Made by a program: the position numbers and the translations under genes. 64,000 nt of DNA, from NCBI GenBank assembly GCA_027078545.1, contig JALWXN010000004.1, positions 416,001 through 480,000 on the forward strand, written 5' to 3'. Below the pieces are notes generated by a model, which did no database searches, was not told the origin of the DNA, and saw nothing but the letters and a program-made list of their open reading frames with translations. The stretch is from Nitrososphaeria archaeon. Its GTDB lineage: Archaea > Thermoproteota > Nitrososphaeria > Geothermarchaeales > JDFR-13. Shown here one piece after another: positions 4,497-10,209 of the stretch. The stretch's first letter is position 1, and each line of letters starts with the position of its first letter.

Positions 4497-5318
4497 ATGG
4501 CCAGGGTACTACTAACCAATGACGATGGATACTTCTCACCCGGGATAAGGAGGATGATCGACGTCCTCTCCCAGTTCACCGACCTCGTGGTTGTATGCCC
4601 TGAGCAGCAGAGGAGTGCTGCTGGGCTCAGCGTGACCCTCCACAAGCCGCTCAGGATCAGGGTCGCCAACTATAGGAACCAGACCTGCTACCTCGTCAAC
4701 GGGACTACCGGTGACTGTGTGAGCCTAGGCCTGTTCCACATCCTTGAGAAGCCACCCGACATGGTTGTATCGGGGATAAACATAGGCGAGAATATAAGCC
4801 TGGTCGAGTTCTTCATGAGCGGTACCGTGGCGGGTGCACTCCTAGCCGCTATCCACAATATCCCCAGCATATCCTTCTCGAAGAGTGTGGAGAGCGCCGA
4901 CGTTATCGGTGGGCGTGTAAGGAGCGGGGGTTTCGAGGAGGCCGCCAGGATAGCTGGTGAGATAGTGAGGTACGTCCTTGACGAGGGCCTCCCAGAGGGA
5001 GTCGACATGTTCAACGTTAACTTCCCCAAGAAGATTACCCGTGAGACTAGGATAGTGGTAACCCGCCTAGCCAGGCTGAGCCTAGTAACCAAGGTCTATG
5101 TGAGGCACGACCCCAGAGGGAGGGAGTACTACTGGATATGGGGGGAGAAGTTCAAGAACTTCCCCAGGGGGACCGATGGATACGAGGTATTCATAAATGG
5201 GAACATATCCCTAACACCCGTCTCACTATCCAGCCTATCAACAACCCCAGACCTGAAGAAGGTGCAGAGAGTAGCAGACGCCGTTAACGAGATATTGGAA
5301 AGCTATTTCAGAAGCTAA
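4497..5318 (+). CDS. surE: 5'/3'-nucleotidase SurE
   Basis: LLTNDDG, GTTGDCV, DMVVSGINIGEN, SGTVAGA, DPRGREYYW. Confidence 0.95.
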   Translation: MARVLLTNDDGYFSPGIRRMIDVLSQFTDLVVVCPEQQRSAAGLSVTLHKPLRIRVANYRNQTCYLVNGTTGDCVSLGLFHILEKPPDMVVSGINIGENISLVEFFMSGTVAGALLAAIHNIPSISFSKSVESADVIGGRVRSGGFEEAARIAGEIVRYVLDEGLPEGVDMFNVNFPKKITRETRIVVTRLARLSLVTKVYVRHDPRGREYYWIWGEKFKNFPRGTDGYEVFINGNISLTPVSLSSLSTTPDLKKVQRVADAVNEILESYFRS

Positions 5319-5345
5319 TGTTACTTAAAGCAATCATAATTATTT

Positions 5346-5437
5346 AGGATTTTATCCTCCGCGATTTAATATTAAACGATAACCTGAAACTAATTATAAT
5401 TAGTTGAGTACTATTTTGAGATACCCCTGTCAAAATA
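5346..5437. repeat. Cluster of palindromes upstream of the peptide gene
   Basis: AGGAT-ttt-ATCCT 5346-5358; TTTAATATTAAA 5365-5376; perfect 18-bp AACTAATTATAATTAGTT 5388-5405; TATTTTGA-N10-TCAAAATA 5412-5437. Confidence 0.7.
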
Positions 5438-5522
5438 CAGCTTCTCAATATATACATCTCTGACTAAAGTAAATGTCACATATTATGTTGGTCAAAGATA
5501 GTGATTTTAAGTGGTGATTACC

Positions 5523-5642
5523 ATGAAGTATAATCCACCCGAAATAACATCAATGGACTTACTGTTAGCGCCATTATGCCTCTGTAATTGCAACTGTGGA
5601 CTGCTGTCAGGTTCGGGAGCTGGAGGAGGGAGTGCTAAGTAG
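5523..5642 (+). CDS. Putative RiPP precursor peptide, 39 aa (MKYNPPEITSMDLLLAPLCLCNCNCGLLSGSGAGGGSAK)
   Basis: Hand-translated; below the ORF-track cutoff. SD GGTGAT at 5513-5518; YxxP leader-like motif; CxCxCxC core; first gene of the ABC/rSAM/PqqD operon. Confidence 0.85.
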   Translation: MKYNPPEITSMDLLLAPLCLCNCNCGLLSGSGAGGGSAK

Positions 5643-5658
5643 CCGCTGGTGGCTAAGC

Positions 5659-6567
5659 GTGCACATAAGAGTCATCAGCATCACAAAGACATACGGTGCT
5701 AGTGTCAGAGCCGTAGAATCCCTATCCTTTTTTATAAACTCAGGAGAATCTGTAGCGCTAATAGGACCCAATGGGGCAGGAAAAACGACAACTATACATA
5801 TCATTCTTGGGCTATTGAAGCCTGATGAAGGAGAAGTTTATATAGACGGAGTCAACATGATGGATGAAAAGGAATCATCGGAAATACGTTCTAGAATAGG
5901 TTTTGCACCACAGAACATCGCGTTGGATTTTTTCCTTACTGTTGAGGATAACATCGAACTGTACCTGAAGTTAAATGGACTATCAAGAGCGAATAGGCGA
6001 GAAAGAACAAAAAGGATACTTGAGTTAATGGGTTTATATGAATATAGGAATAGGAGGGTGGAGACGCTTTCAGGAGGATTAGCCAGACGTGTTCACATAG
6101 CGAGGGCACTGGCTCTCGACCCTGAATTGATTATTTTGGATGAGCCTACTGTTGGATTGGACCCTGTTTCAAGGAGACTTTTCTGGGAAGCTCTCAAGGG
6201 ATACATTAAGGAGTCGGGTGCAACACTCCTGTGGAGTAGCCATTATTTGGAGGAGATCGAAAGAAATGCCGATCGAGTGATTCTACTAAATAGAGGCAGA
6301 AAGTTGATGGACGCTCCTCCTGGAGAGATTGTATCCAAGTTTTCGAGACCTGTACTCGAGCTAGAAATACCTAATGAAGAGGTTTTAAAGTCACTTACAT
6401 CGAGATTCGGCGGTAACTATGTAAATGGAAGGCTCATCATTGACGATGTCGACTGGGATGATCTGCCCAAGGTTATAGCAAGCCTGAGTAAGCTTGGTGC
6501 TGAGGTACGGCTGTTGAGGTGGGGTAGTAAGTCACTTGAGGAGGTGTATCTCGAGGTGATGTCATGA
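5659..6567 (+). CDS. ABC-2 type exporter ATP-binding subunit
   Basis: GPNGAGKTT, LSGG, ILDEPT. Start reassigned to GTG 5659 (GGTGG upstream) so it does not overlap the peptide gene. Confidence 0.92.
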   Translation: MHIRVISITKTYGASVRAVESLSFFINSGESVALIGPNGAGKTTTIHIILGLLKPDEGEVYIDGVNMMDEKESSEIRSRIGFAPQNIALDFFLTVEDNIELYLKLNGLSRANRRERTKRILELMGLYEYRNRRVETLSGGLARRVHIARALALDPELIILDEPTVGLDPVSRRLFWEALKGYIKESGATLLWSSHYLEEIERNADRVILLNRGRKLMDAPPGEIVSKFSRPVLELEIPNEEVLKSLTSRFGGNYVNGRLIIDDVDWDDLPKVIASLSKLGAEVRLLRWGSKSLEEVYLEVMS

Positions 6568-7316
6568 GTATTGTTATAACCCTTATCGAGAGGGAGTTCA
6601 AAATACTGTTTAGGAGTAAGTTGCTTATGCTTCTCATGATAGCTCAGCCAGTAATTTTGATATTCTTGTTCGTCCTGTCTATGGGTAATGTAGTCGGTGA
6701 GATAACTTATCGGGGTATCACTGTTAGCTATGTGGAGTTCATGGTTCCAAGCGTGGTTATTCTTACCCTTATGTTTGTTACTATGATGGTGAGCCAATCC
6801 GTTTTCAACGAGAAGTTTTCCAACATGCTGATAATCCTGTTATCTACGAGGATGACAGCTAGGGACTACATCGTAAGTAAATTGATAACCAACACTTTTA
6901 TATCATTAACACAGGCGATGCTTATGCTAACAGCTTATCTATTGATTATAGGAGGAACCAACATAATATCAATTATATATGCTCTTCCACCAATAATAAT
7001 TGCATCACTGACACTTTCGGGGATATATCTCTCTCTTCTAGGGTATCTCAAAACAATTTCAGCTTTCTCGAGTGCCGTAAACATACTTACATTGATAATG
7101 ATATATTCTGCACCTCTTTTCTACCCTTTGGAGGCGATGCCTTTCCCTCTAAATTTTGCTAGTAATGTTAATCCTTTAACATATATTGTTGAATCAACAA
7201 GGATAGGTTATTTATTAAAGAGTTTTGATGTATCAATATGGATATCCTCGATAATTTGTATAATCTTCATATTACTATCCATTCATACAATGAAAAATAT
7301 GCTTACGGAGGTTTAA
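6564..7316 (+). CDS. ABC-2 type exporter permease
   Basis: About 6 hydrophobic segments, FYPLEAMP...NPLTY motif; ATGA overlap with the ATPase gene. Confidence 0.9.
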   Translation: MSIVITLIEREFKILFRSKLLMLLMIAQPVILIFLFVLSMGNVVGEITYRGITVSYVEFMVPSVVILTLMFVTMMVSQSVFNEKFSNMLIILLSTRMTARDYIVSKLITNTFISLTQAMLMLTAYLLIIGGTNIISIIYALPPIIIASLTLSGIYLSLLGYLKTISAFSSAVNILTLIMIYSAPLFYPLEAMPFPLNFASNVNPLTYIVESTRIGYLLKSFDVSIWISSIICIIFILLSIHTMKNMLTEV

Positions 7317-7318
7317 AA

Positions 7319-8713
7319 ATGATAGAAAGAAGAATGATAATTCAGGATACTCCACTTGAAAAATTAAGGGAGAACTTGAAAAGATTAATATGCATCAAAT
7401 TTAAAAATCTCTATGTGCTTTTTGATCCAGAGACAGTCAGTTGGATCCCCATTAGTGACGATGATATCGCAATGCTTAGAGAATTTTATTGGGGTGGCTA
7501 TCTAAGAGAGAAAAAAGGATTTCATCTGATTGGTAGGATGATATCGTCCTTAATTGGAGTGTCTTATAGAATAATTTATAATAAATTACTTCCCTACCCA
7601 TCAGTGTATTATTTGGAAATCACAAAGGGTTGCAACCTTAGATGTGTTTACTGTTATATAGGTTCTGCGCCTGAATTGCTCAGTTATAAGGGAAAGATGA
7701 AAGTTGAGAACTGGCTTGAACTGATAAATCAAATAAATACCCTTGGGGGCAGAGAAGTAATTTTTACTGGAGGCGAACCATTACTAAAGTATGATGACAT
7801 TTTATCTATCGGAAAGTATGCAAAGGAACATGGTCTTATTACATCTCTCATTACCAATGGTGTTTTGCTGAATTCTAAGAGAGTTGAGGAGCTCTCTAGG
7901 ATTATAGATAACATCACTGTTAGCCTGGATAGTCATATAGGTTCAGTTAATGCGGTTACAAGAGGTTATAGAGAGACACATAGAATAATATATTACATTA
8001 AGAGCCTCCTCGAGAAGGGAGTAAATATTTATGTAAATTGTGTTGTAACAAGAAGTAACGTAAATAGCTTGACTAGTTTCTTGGATCATTTACAAAAGAT
8101 CGGAGTGACCCCTGATAAAATAAAATTTATTCTCATGGCACCAGCAGGAAGGGCTTTAACATTGGATCATTTCTCAGTCAACCCAATGGATTTAGTCAAA
8201 GAGTCATTTTTATATAACCTTAGGATGGGAGTCATTCCTAATCACAGTCGTACGGCTTTTAATAAATTTTCAAGAAAGTACATGTGTGGGGCTTCCGTAT
8301 CTGAATTATATATAGATTGTGATGGAAACGTTTATCCATGTAGAATGTTGGTGACAAAGTCTGGACATCTTGGAAATGTCCTTAAAAACTCATTGAAGGA
8401 CATACTTGACAGTTCCAATAGGTATAATTTTGTTGATTCGATATCCAAACCCAATTTAAAGGTATGTAAAGATTGTATTTATAGAAATGTATGTGCTGGG
8501 GGGTGCAGAGGCAATGTCATAGGTTCCCAAGGTAATTTGACGGATCCTGATCCCATTAATTGCATTATCGTTAAAAATACTTTTCCTCTGTATATGATAG
8601 TCGAATCCTACGGCTTAGAGGTTCTTAGAAATCTGAATGATAGAAATGTATTTCGACAAGTGGAGGTTGTTAGTTCATGGTTGGAAGAAGATTTAGACCT
8701 AAAGAAAGTGTGA
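7319..8713 (+). CDS. Radical SAM/SPASM-domain peptide maturase
   Basis: CNLRCVYC, FTGGEPLL, and SPASM cysteines C..DGNVYPC...CKDCIYRNVCAGGC...C. Start ATG 7319 follows GGAGGT. Confidence 0.92.
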   Translation: MIERRMIIQDTPLEKLRENLKRLICIKFKNLYVLFDPETVSWIPISDDDIAMLREFYWGGYLREKKGFHLIGRMISSLIGVSYRIIYNKLLPYPSVYYLEITKGCNLRCVYCYIGSAPELLSYKGKMKVENWLELINQINTLGGREVIFTGGEPLLKYDDILSIGKYAKEHGLITSLITNGVLLNSKRVEELSRIIDNITVSLDSHIGSVNAVTRGYRETHRIIYYIKSLLEKGVNIYVNCVVTRSNVNSLTSFLDHLQKIGVTPDKIKFILMAPAGRALTLDHFSVNPMDLVKESFLYNLRMGVIPNHSRTAFNKFSRKYMCGASVSELYIDCDGNVYPCRMLVTKSGHLGNVLKNSLKDILDSSNRYNFVDSISKPNLKVCKDCIYRNVCAGGCRGNVIGSQGNLTDPDPINCIIVKNTFPLYMIVESYGLEVLRNLNDRNVFRQVEVVSSWLEEDLDLKKV

Positions 8714-8949
8714 TTATAAATAGGTCTGAGTTCGATGACAGGTTTTTAATCTATGATCCAAGAAGTGGGAAAATGTTTTTCACTAATGAAATCGGTGTCT
8801 TAATTTGGTATTTGCTCAGATGTTATGAAGTGGATAGAATTGTAGAAGCTGTTTCCATACTTACAGGAGAGAAGATGGAGACTATTAATAAAGATCTAAA
8901 TAACTTTTTAGAAAGACTTAAGAAACTAGGGTTAGTTGAAATAGAGTAA
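8677..8949 (+). CDS. PqqD-family RiPP recognition element (RRE)
   Basis: 90 aa with FLIYDPRSGKMFFTNEIGVLIW...DLNNFLERLKKLGLV, a typical PqqD pattern; overlaps the rSAM gene. Confidence 0.88.
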   Translation: MVGRRFRPKESVIINRSEFDDRFLIYDPRSGKMFFTNEIGVLIWYLLRCYEVDRIVEAVSILTGEKMETINKDLNNFLERLKKLGLVEIE

Positions 8950-9018
8950 TTGCCAGTATCTGCATTGACACACGTTATAATCTTCTTAAAGCTAAATACC
9001 ATTGTTAGTGGTGTTCCT

Positions 9019-10209
9019 ATGGAGAAGTATGACGTGATCGTGATTGGTCTGGGGCCTGGTGGTGCCTCGGCTCTCTACAAGATTGCCTCCTATGGCTACA
9101 GGGTGATTGGATTCGATAAGAGGAGGGAGATCGGCGTCCCTATCCAGTGCGGCGAGTTCATCCCGCAGTACCATGAGTATAGGGGGATCTTGCCCGAGGT
9201 TACCGACGAGTATCTCGAGATATTTAGGAAGATGCCTATGAGCCTGGTGGATAACAGGACTGATAGGGTCAGGGTTGTGACCCCTGGTGGGGATGAGTAT
9301 GAGGTTGGTTTCGACGGCTTCGTCATCGATAGGGAGAGGTTTGACAAGTGGATCGTTAAGATGGCTGTTGATAGGGGTGCCGAGGTGAGGATAAGGGCTA
9401 ATGTCTATAAGCTAGAGGAGGACGGCACCGTCCACGTCAGGATAGGGGATAAGGCTGAGAAGTATAGGGCTGACGCCGTGGTCATAGCTGCTGGGACATC
9501 CTCGACCCTCCTTGACCAGGTGGGTCTGTATAGGGAGACTGATGAGCTGAACCTTGGACACGTCATCAACTACCAGATGGCAGGCGTCGACTCTGACCCA
9601 AGGGTTGTGGAGATGTATACTGGTAAGAAGTGGTCCCCAGGGGCATATGCATGGATCATCCCTAAGGGCGGCGGCGTAGCCAATGTCGGCCTCGGGATTA
9701 GGTATGACTATATCGAGGATGATGTGAGGGATATAAACGTCTATATGGAGCGTTTCTGGCATGAGCATCCAGTGGCGTCTAAGAAGCTTGGTAGGGCCCA
9801 GCCCCTGTCATATGTGGGTGGCCTAGTCCCCGTCGGCCCACCCCCGAAGAAGACGGTCTCGGGTAGGTATGTCTCGGTGGGTGACGCGGCTAACCAGAAC
9901 ATAGCCTCCCTAGGGGCTGGGATAGTCACCTCCTCGATAGGCGGTATAGCGGCTGGTGAGGCTATACATAAGTACCTCTCAGGCGAGGCCGGCCTCGAGT
10001 ATTATGAGGAGCTCTGGAAGCGTCTACTGGGTAGGGCCTTGGAGGATGGGTATAGGCTTAGACTGGTGATAGACATCATTACGAAGGAGGACCGCTATAC
10101 GGACGAGTTTATGAGGATCGTCGGTAGGGAGAGGATTAAGGACCTTGTCTATACGAGGGCGCCGAGCAACATGGATCTCCTGAAGATTGCGATGAGCATC
10201 ATGAAGTAG
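9019..10209 (+). CDS. Geranylgeranyl reductase family (DGGR-like) FAD oxidoreductase
   Basis: YDVIVIGLGPGG, PIQCGE, YAWIIPKG..ANVGLG, VGDAA. Start ATG 9019. Confidence 0.88.
   Translation: MEKYDVIVIGLGPGGASALYKIASYGYRVIGFDKRREIGVPIQCGEFIPQYHEYRGILPEVTDEYLEIFRKMPMSLVDNRTDRVRVVTPGGDEYEVGFDGFVIDRERFDKWIVKMAVDRGAEVRIRANVYKLEEDGTVHVRIGDKAEKYRADAVVIAAGTSSTLLDQVGLYRETDELNLGHVINYQMAGVDSDPRVVEMYTGKKWSPGAYAWIIPKGGGVANVGLGIRYDYIEDDVRDINVYMERFWHEHPVASKKLGRAQPLSYVGGLVPVGPPPKKTVSGRYVSVGDAANQNIASLGAGIVTSSIGGIAAGEAIHKYLSGEAGLEYYEELWKRLLGRALEDGYRLRLVIDIITKEDRYTDEFMRIVGRERIKDLVYTRAPSNMDLLKIAMSIMK

What the first reader, a model, noticed from the sequence alone, without database searches (positions are those of the whole stretch)
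5523..8949. Putative archaeal RiPP operon: peptide + ABC exporter + rSAM/SPASM + PqqD
Seen: five tightly coupled co-directional genes (39-aa Cys-rich peptide, ABC ATPase, permease, radical SAM with a full SPASM cysteine set, stand-alone PqqD protein). Established: RRE-dependent rSAM/SPASM enzymes such as AlbA, ThnB and CteB install thioether cross-links in sactipeptides and ranthipeptides. Inference: this is a self-contained make-and-export pathway for a thioether-stapled peptide (antimicrobial, signal or metal binder) in a thermophilic archaeon, a group with very few characterised RiPPs.
Basis: partly seen in the sequence, partly recalled or inferred. Interest (0 to 1): 0.9.

Follow-up and report, generated by a model that had tools for sequence, protein, structure and literature searches.

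The report
Four-bridge hairpin sactipeptide cassette, vent archaeon
A heat-loving vent archaeon carries a foreign-looking five-gene set that most likely staples a small peptide into a hairpin with four sulfur-to-glycine bridges and exports it; this peptide type was described in bacteria in 2023, and I found no report of it in archaea.

Summary
The five genes are real and intact. They form a low-GC insertion (37% vs 52%) between surE and a geranylgeranyl reductase in a reverse-gyrase-bearing vent archaeon. The system is a divergent StsA/StsB-type hairpin sactipeptide pathway, not an AlbA, ThnB or CteB type. The peptide core (CxCxCxC-x4-GxGxGxG) extends the proven StsA register by one rung, predicting C19-G36, C21-G34, C23-G32 and C25-G30 bridges (-8 Da). 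The enzyme's best family is StsB (below cut-off), and its six active-site-facing residues (Y,T,I,S,R,M) match StsB's (Y,T,I,S,K,L), not MftC's. All 8 homologous loci examined carry a CxC peptide. The closest relative is a same-order, frameshifted cassette in Thermococcus sp. 101 C5 with a matching four-rung peptide. Among close relatives the site is full, biosynthetically broken, reduced to the transporter, or empty, which suggests a patchily spreading antagonism cassette; function is untested. No leader peptidase is encoded. Four-rung cores also occur in bacteria, and the scan noted an StsA-like cassette in a bacterium before. Verdict: new archaeal variant of a known kind; moderate interest.

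The parts
5319..9000 (.). Low-GC inserted island between surE and geranylgeranyl reductase
   Evidence: GC 0.373 vs genome mean 0.52 (sd 0.03); 0.13% of equal windows are as low. surE directly adjoins the reductase in three same-genus genomes.
5513..5518 (+). Shine-Dalgarno GGTGAT of the precursor gene
   Evidence: Sequence; complementary to the 16S 3' end found in the genome.
5523..5642 (+). Precursor peptide, 39 aa: Y3-x-x-P6 recognition motif; core C19, C21, C23, C25 - 4-residue loop - G30, G32, G34, G36
   Evidence: Weak hits to StsA models NF045558 (E 0.047) and NF045559 (E 0.06); register and Y-to-first-Cys spacing of 16 match StsA (PMC10288494, PMC12710340); same pattern in Thermococcus sp. 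101 C5; alignment A3.
5659..6567 (+). ABC-2 exporter ATPase (DrrA-like), 302 aa; start inferred
   Evidence: PF00005 and TIGR01188 215 bits, below cut-off; 45% to Thermococcus orthologue; 68% to L067.
6564..7316 (+). ABC-2 permease (DrrB-like), 250 aa
   Evidence: PF01061 E 1.6e-17; orthologues in L067, L001 and Thermococcus.
7319..8713 (+). Radical SAM/SPASM maturase, 464 aa, StsB-like, with an N-terminal RRE-like domain (about residues 5-86)
   Evidence: Best NCBIfam hit NF045574 StsB 174 bits, next 112, cut-off 625; active-site-facing residues Y113, T150, I178, S202, R342, M343; AF2 model pLDDT 81, best fold match CteB over about 450 columns.
8677..8949 (+). Stand-alone RRE (PqqD family, StsC-like), 90 aa
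   Evidence: PF05402 over cut-off; only close relative is Thermococcus sp. 101 C5 PqqD at 40%.
4497..5318 (+). Left flank: surE (host gene, not part of the system)
   Evidence: TIGR00087 over cut-off; GC3 0.70 vs 0.29-0.42 in the cassette.
9019..10209 (+). Right flank: geranylgeranyl reductase family protein (host gene, not part of the system)
   Evidence: TIGR02032 over cut-off; present at the empty site in relatives.

Best explanation
A horizontally acquired StsA/StsB-type sactipeptide cassette. (1) The 39-aa precursor is translated [ORF and SD shown; expression not shown]. (2) The stand-alone RRE binds the YxxP leader and presents the peptide to the maturase [inferred from StsC/StsA]. (3) The maturase cleaves SAM, abstracts an alpha-hydrogen from Gly, and joins a Cys thiol held at the auxiliary Fe-S cluster to that carbon. 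This gives a hairpin with up to four rungs, C25-G30, C23-G32, C21-G34 and C19-G36, probably built from the inner rung outward, with a loss of 8.06 Da from 3897.83 Da [inferred from StsA; the fourth rung is an extrapolation]. (4) The leader is removed by a host protease in trans, or is kept [unresolved]. (5) The ABC-2 pair exports the product and probably protects the cell [inferred]. Most likely role: an exported antagonistic peptide (about 50%), ahead of a signal (about 25%) or a metal binder (about 15%).
For: Register: StsA's proven bridges are Cys2-Gly15, Cys4-Gly13 and Cys6-Gly11; every Cys here has a Gly at the mirrored position. Leader: StsC needs StsA's WxxP; YxxP here lies the same 16 residues before the first Cys, also in Thermococcus. 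Enzyme: StsB is the top family. [quoted passage not shown] Context: 8 of 8 top-hit loci with enough flank carry a short CxC peptide, 5 of them with CxCxC-x4-GxGxG. Tree: sister to Thermococcus (SH-aLRT 98), among peptide-linked bacterial enzymes and apart from MftC and Ahb (quick tree, deep nodes unstarred). RRE-peptide model: weak support only, score 0.46 vs best control 0.01, runs agree in at least 89% of contacts, partner pLDDT at least 53. That mark was reached by 58 of 80 solved and 2 of 110 mismatched pairs, but at 0.60 or under by only 7 solved pairs and both mismatches, and the pass may reflect likeness to solved RRE-leader complexes. For export/self-protection: relatives that lost or broke the biosynthetic genes keep an intact transporter.
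Against: Far below the curated cut-offs (174 vs 625 bits; 13.6 vs 42 bits), and no characterised enzyme was compared directly; the best uncharacterised homologues are only about 35% identical. Positions 1-4 (Y,T,I/L,S) are common among the top hits, so they are not diagnostic alone. No peptidase in the cassette. Copies in Thermococcus and in the sister species G002 are broken, so the cassette may be short-lived cargo. The StsA paper reports no bioactivity, so the role is a guess from gene-loss patterns.
Confidence: 0.78

Rival explanations
1. Same pathway but different product: fewer than four rings (an StsA-like three-ring core with one free Cys), or thioethers to non-alpha carbons of Asn, Ser or Leu (ranthipeptide), or SbtM-type thiooxazole chemistry.
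For: CteB, a ranthisynthase, is the top solved fold match. The outer StsA ring forms least readily. L072's peptide has four Cys but only three in-register Gly.
Against: The CteB match reflects which structures exist: StsB has none among the hits. CteB's six residues (F,F,T,S,H,Q) differ at five positions. Gly has only an alpha carbon. The fourth Cys/Gly pair is also present in Thermococcus and in L131. SbtM (TIGR04082) is not among the enzyme's 25 best families.
Confidence: 0.12
2. Selfish or decaying cargo: the cassette arrived recently, is rarely or never expressed, and is being lost; only the transporter has a use.
For: Low GC and unameliorated codon third positions. Broken copies in G002 (precursor ATG to ACG, PqqD frameshift, rSAM deletion in a vent contig) and in Thermococcus (frameshifts in four records). 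Not found in the other Thermoproteota genomes searched.
Against: All five window ORFs are intact with good SD sites. pN/pS-based omega is below 1 against sister alleles (0.23 permease, 0.31 ATPase, 0.49 PqqD, on few changes). An intact PqqD allele exists in the sister lineage. Gene order and the four-rung core are kept across 34-45% protein identity with Thermococcus, which needs long selection somewhere.
Confidence: 0.15
3. The Cys-rich peptide is a metal-binding or stress peptide, modified or not, and the ABC pair exports it or a metal complex; antagonism plays no part.
For: Metal-rich vent habitat. In L067 a different 36-codon CxxC-x7-CxxCC ORF sits where the precursor would be, with the transporter but no maturase.
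Against: If all four Cys become thioethers no free thiol is left. No metal regulator or metal-homeostasis gene lies in or beside the cassette. The L067 ORF has a poorly spaced SD and is unverified.
Confidence: 0.12
4. The enzyme is a cofactor or protein maturase (MftC, PqqE, AhbC/D, anSME) and the short ORF is incidental.
For: These families all score in NCBIfam (88-112 bits).
Against: StsB scores higher (174). The peptide has no C-terminal Val-Tyr (MftA) and no PqqA-type Glu/Tyr core. No pqq, mft, ahb or sulfatase genes are nearby. The tree and the active-site residues separate it.
Confidence: 0.02

Closest known systems
StsA/StsB/StsC sactipeptide system of Streptomyces sparsogenes (Precord et al. 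2023, PMC10288494; NCBIfam NF045558, NF045574)
   Same: CxCxC-x4-GxGxG hairpin register; aromatic-x-x-P leader 16 residues before the first Cys; stand-alone RRE; SPASM enzyme with nearly the same six active-site-facing residues.
   Different: Four Cys/Gly pairs instead of three; YxxP instead of WxxP; R,M instead of K,L; far below the curated cut-offs; hyperthermophilic archaeal host; ABC-2 exporter placed between precursor and maturase.
BlaA/BlaB two-ring Cys-Gly sactipeptide (as described in PMC10288494)
   Same: Cys-to-Gly hairpin with the same 4-residue loop (Cys15-Gly20, Cys13-Gly22), shown by NMR.
   Different: Two rings, bacterial; not compared directly here.
Uncharacterised cassette of Thermococcus sp. 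101 C5 (WP_152880027.1, WP_152880025.1; loci L228-L231)
   Same: Same order peptide-ATPase-permease-rSAM-PqqD; four-rung core; YxxP leader; R,M at positions 5-6; 34-46% protein identity.
   Different: Adds an S24/S26 peptidase gene; ATPase, permease and rSAM are frameshifted; precursor is not annotated; different archaeal phylum.
Subtilosin A-like clusters (sboA, albA, albC) in Thermococcus celer and T. nautili (bioRxiv 10.64898/2026.07.27.741052)
   Same: Predicted minimal sactipeptide pathway in hyperthermophilic archaea, proposed to come from bacteria, with a transporter but no dedicated peptidase.
   Different: Different precursor family (Cys to Phe/Tyr acceptors) and AlbA-type enzyme; also untested.
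CteB/SCIFF ranthipeptides, SkfB, and the archaeal CrpC protein thioether enzyme (PMC13692751)
   Same: RRE-rSAM-SPASM architecture and C-S bond formation; best solved-structure matches.
   Different: Different substrates and linkage; different active-site-facing residues (CteB).

Membership tests
StsA/StsB hairpin sactipeptides | Precursor core CxCxC-x4-GxGxG | tested here: met
   C21/C23/C25 with G30/G32/G34, plus C19/G36.
StsA/StsB hairpin sactipeptides | W/Y-x-x-P recognition sequence in the leader | tested here: met
   Y3-N-P-P6; Y and P invariant in alignment A3; StsA motif from PMC12710340.
StsA/StsB hairpin sactipeptides | Stand-alone RRE next to an rSAM/SPASM enzyme | tested here: met
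   PF05402 overlapping the rSAM 3' end.
StsA/StsB hairpin sactipeptides | Catalytic-site-proximity residues like StsB (Y,T,I,S,K,L) | tested here: met
   Y113, T150, I178, S202, R342, M343: four identical, two conservative. Read from motifs and alignment, not by the paper's scoring matrix.
NCBIfam NF045574 (StsB) and NF045558 (StsA), strict models | Score over the curated cut-off | tested here: not met
   174 vs 625 and 13.6 vs 42 bits. Other clear CxCxC-x4-GxGxG loci also fail (193-364 and 16-35 bits or no hit), so the models are narrow. Filed as StsB-like, not as a member of these models.
Sactipeptides | Sulfur-to-alpha-carbon thioether formed on the peptide | not testable with these tools
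   Needs co-expression, MS and desulfurization.
Mycofactocin (MftA/MftC) | C-terminal Val-Tyr precursor and MftC active-site residues | tested here: not met
   Peptide ends Ser-Ala-Lys; MftC-named hits read L,G,S,S,A,F and form a separate clade.
SCIFF/CteB ranthipeptides | Six-Cys SCIFF precursor and CteB residues F,F,T,S,H,Q | tested here: not met
   Four Cys only; TIGR03974 77 vs 425 bits; five of six residues differ.
Subtilosin/AlbA-type sactipeptides | SboA-like precursor and AlbA family score | tested here: not met
   No SboA model hit the peptide; AlbA is not among the enzyme's 25 best families.
Bacteriocin / archaeocin | Growth inhibition of other strains with producer immunity | not testable with these tools
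   Only indirect: transporter kept where biosynthetic genes are lost.

The most novel reading that the evidence does not exclude
An archaeal lineage of four-rung hairpin sactipeptides, passed between a Thermoproteota vent archaeon and Thermococcus, acts as an archaeocin. Vent populations then hold producers, immune non-producers that keep only the exporter, and sensitive strains with an empty site. This would be a radical-SAM-made antagonistic peptide from a hyperthermophilic archaeon with bacteriocin-like population dynamics.
Probability: 0.3. Interest if true: 0.75.

Novelty: new variant of a known kind. Interest (0 to 1): 0.48.

Why it matters
Characterised archaeal RiPPs are mostly haloarchaeal lanthipeptides, and rSAM-type clusters are predicted but little tested (PMC12144867). 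This locus gives a complete three-protein test with an exact prediction (-8 Da, four named bridges). It may also yield a heat-stable sactisynthase for peptide stapling. The same site in four states among close relatives offers a handle on what StsA-type peptides do, which the defining paper did not report.

Tried and rejected
No RNA holder listed for the stretch. The search for related loci in metagenome contigs with the single rSAM found only one distant hit; viral contigs gave only generic rSAM hits, E 4e-16 or weaker. The three-rung DNA pattern across 401 Thermoproteota genomes matched 38 genomes, about as often as the reversed control; of the 30 loci fetched only the window's own was a hairpin-type short ORF beside a maturase. 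Thermococcales could not be surveyed because the Thermococcus genome has no handle. No promoter, terminator, terminal repeat, integrase or Rfam RNA marks the island (the promoter scan is bacterial-type). The run X4 joint skipping 5290-8991 has only 30 letters on one side at 85% likeness, so I do not count it; uncovered rSAM bins in X4 are not evidence alone. Run X1 may be the source of this DNA. Host order could not be named. The careful tree did not finish; the quick tree was used and no one-clade test was run, so no donor is claimed. My regex for active-site positions 5-6 missed many proteins, so those tallies are partial. The StsA paper's supplement is not held, and StsB itself was not aligned. 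Literature searches found no archaeal StsA-type report, but most subscription journals are not covered.
Full report
Observation. Pfam confirms the four larger products. The enzyme has the three SAM-cluster cysteines and all seven SPASM cysteines. An AF2 model (pLDDT 81) shows an N-terminal three-strand, helix-capped RRE-like domain, and CteB is the best solved fold over about 450 columns. The host is an archaeon with reverse gyrase, held by hydrothermal-vent metagenomes of two studies. Class Nitrososphaeria is inferred only indirectly: a protein of a same-class genome is sister to one named from a Nitrososphaeria archaeon.

What it is. The best NCBIfam model for the enzyme is StsB (174 bits, next 112), and the only two models touching the peptide are StsA-type. 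Both are well under their cut-offs. StsA of Streptomyces sparsogenes has a CxCxC-x4-GxGxG core in which StsB and the RRE StsC build three Cys-to-Gly alpha-carbon thioethers as a hairpin (PMC10288494). The window's core is CLCNCNC-GLLS-GSGAGGG. Each of C19, C21, C23 and C25 has a Gly at the mirrored position (G36, G34, G32, G30), which is one rung more than StsA. The pattern occurs once in the genome and never in 200,000 shuffles. The leader has YxxP 16 residues before the first Cys, the spacing of the WxxP that StsC needs in StsA. The six residues that the paper uses to predict chemistry read Y,T,I,S,R,M here and Y,T,I,S,K,L in StsB. MftC-named homologues read L,G,S,S,A,F, and CteB reads F,F,T,S,H,Q.

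Homologous loci. I fetched DNA around the best enzyme homologues. All eight with enough flank encode a short CxC peptide: five with the StsA register (L001, L003, L071, L072, L228) and three with a shorter CxC-x3-G core (L070, L192, L193). Seven have a PqqD gene beside the enzyme. The closest enzyme (231 bits, next 166) belongs to Thermococcus sp. 101 C5. That locus has the same gene order, an unannotated precursor with YxxP at the same spacing and the core CACSCGC-GLAA-GGGGGGG, and 34-46% identity in the four proteins. It is also the only close relative of the PqqD protein. Its ATPase, permease and rSAM genes are frameshifted in all four records seen. In a quick tree the two archaeal enzymes are sisters (SH-aLRT 98), lie among peptide-linked bacterial enzymes, and are apart from MftC, Ahb and the widespread archaeal SPASM proteins; deep nodes are weak. 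The four-rung core is not confined to archaea: a Candidatus Multivoradales genome has one next to an rSAM gene, and an earlier scan note describes a CxCxCxC version in a Bipolaricaulota bacterium (unchecked).

An inserted, variable cassette. The block is 37% GC against 52% for the genome. In three other genomes of the genus, surE runs straight into the reductase gene. The sister genome G002 has the cassette, and its synonymous divergence (pS 0.009 ATPase, 0.058 permease) is far below that of the flanks (0.27). This points to transfer between the two species after they split, although mis-binning is not excluded. In G002 the precursor start is ACG (two in-frame GTGs remain upstream) and PqqD is frameshifted. 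One G002 contig ends at 7449, next to the left end of a 1,079-bp rSAM deletion (7445 to 8525) that a contig of run X4 spans; the transporter is intact. An intact sister-type PqqD allele also exists. A more distant vent strain (L067, L068, L318) has only the ATPase and permease at this site, 67% identical, intact, with saturated synonymous sites, and with an unrelated 36-codon Cys-rich ORF upstream. The cassette was not found in the other Thermoproteota genomes searched.

Mechanism. Shown: intact genes, motifs, register, conserved context. Inferred from StsABC: the RRE binds the leader (model gives weak support only, 0.46 vs 0.01 for the best control); the enzyme forms up to four Cys-Gly alpha-thioethers; the ABC-2 pair exports the product. 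Open: leader removal, because the S24/S26 peptidase beside five homologous loci is absent here and only host S24/S26-like genes elsewhere in the genome match it. On role, losing the biosynthetic genes while keeping the exporter is what a producer/immune/sensitive polymorphism would give, so antagonism is my first choice. Simple decay of foreign DNA, signalling and metal binding remain possible.

Novelty. The class and its chemistry are known since 2023. Archaeal sactipeptide and ranthipeptide clusters have been predicted by genome mining, and subtilosin-like clusters were reported in Thermococcus. I found no report of an StsA-type system in archaea, nor of a four-ring member, within the library searched. 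It works like StsABC but fails the strict family cut-offs, so I file it as a new variant of a known kind. Interest 0.48: predictable chemistry, but an intact, directly testable hyperthermophile example with an informative gain-and-loss pattern.

Noticed in passing
L225:7400-7545 (minus strand; G074) and L226:6330-6470 (G175): A different, apparently uncharacterised archaeal RiPP cassette in two genomes of one Thermoproteota genus: a short ORF with a YEAPKV leader motif and a conserved His/Tyr/Asp-rich core (HAHLKY...DYDTSP, no Cys pattern), directly before a 454-aa rSAM/SPASM enzyme with a long N-terminal extension, an ABC ATPase and a permease; low GC (0.39). No NCBIfam cut-off is reached.
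   Followed up: partly
L067:8182-8292: A 36-codon ORF with CxxC-x7-CxxCC sits at the precursor position in the strain that has the transporter but no maturase; not alignable to the window's precursor; SD spacing poor.
   Followed up: partly
L070:6600-7000, L192:1940-2040, L193:2259-2363: Related bacterial clusters (one from Hungatella) with YxxP leaders and a shorter CxC-x3-G(xG) core, up to three precursor copies, and an S24/S26 peptidase; a possible separate sactipeptide subgroup.
   Followed up: no
L072:91-270 and L003:969-8383: L072's precursor has two tandem Cys/Gly cores. L003 combines the hairpin precursor with YcaO, an AMP-binding enzyme and a second rSAM, suggesting further tailoring.
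   Followed up: no
G000:C4:178000-184500 (outside the window): A second low-GC island (down to 0.35), the lowest in the genome.
   Followed up: no
window:10749-10835 (minus strand): tRNA-Arg(TCG), 84-87 nt, long enough to hold a short intron.
   Followed up: no
window:1602-2190: About 590 bp between the DNA ligase gene and the convergent 359-aa ORF hold no convincing gene; G/C-run-rich, no Rfam hit.
   Followed up: no
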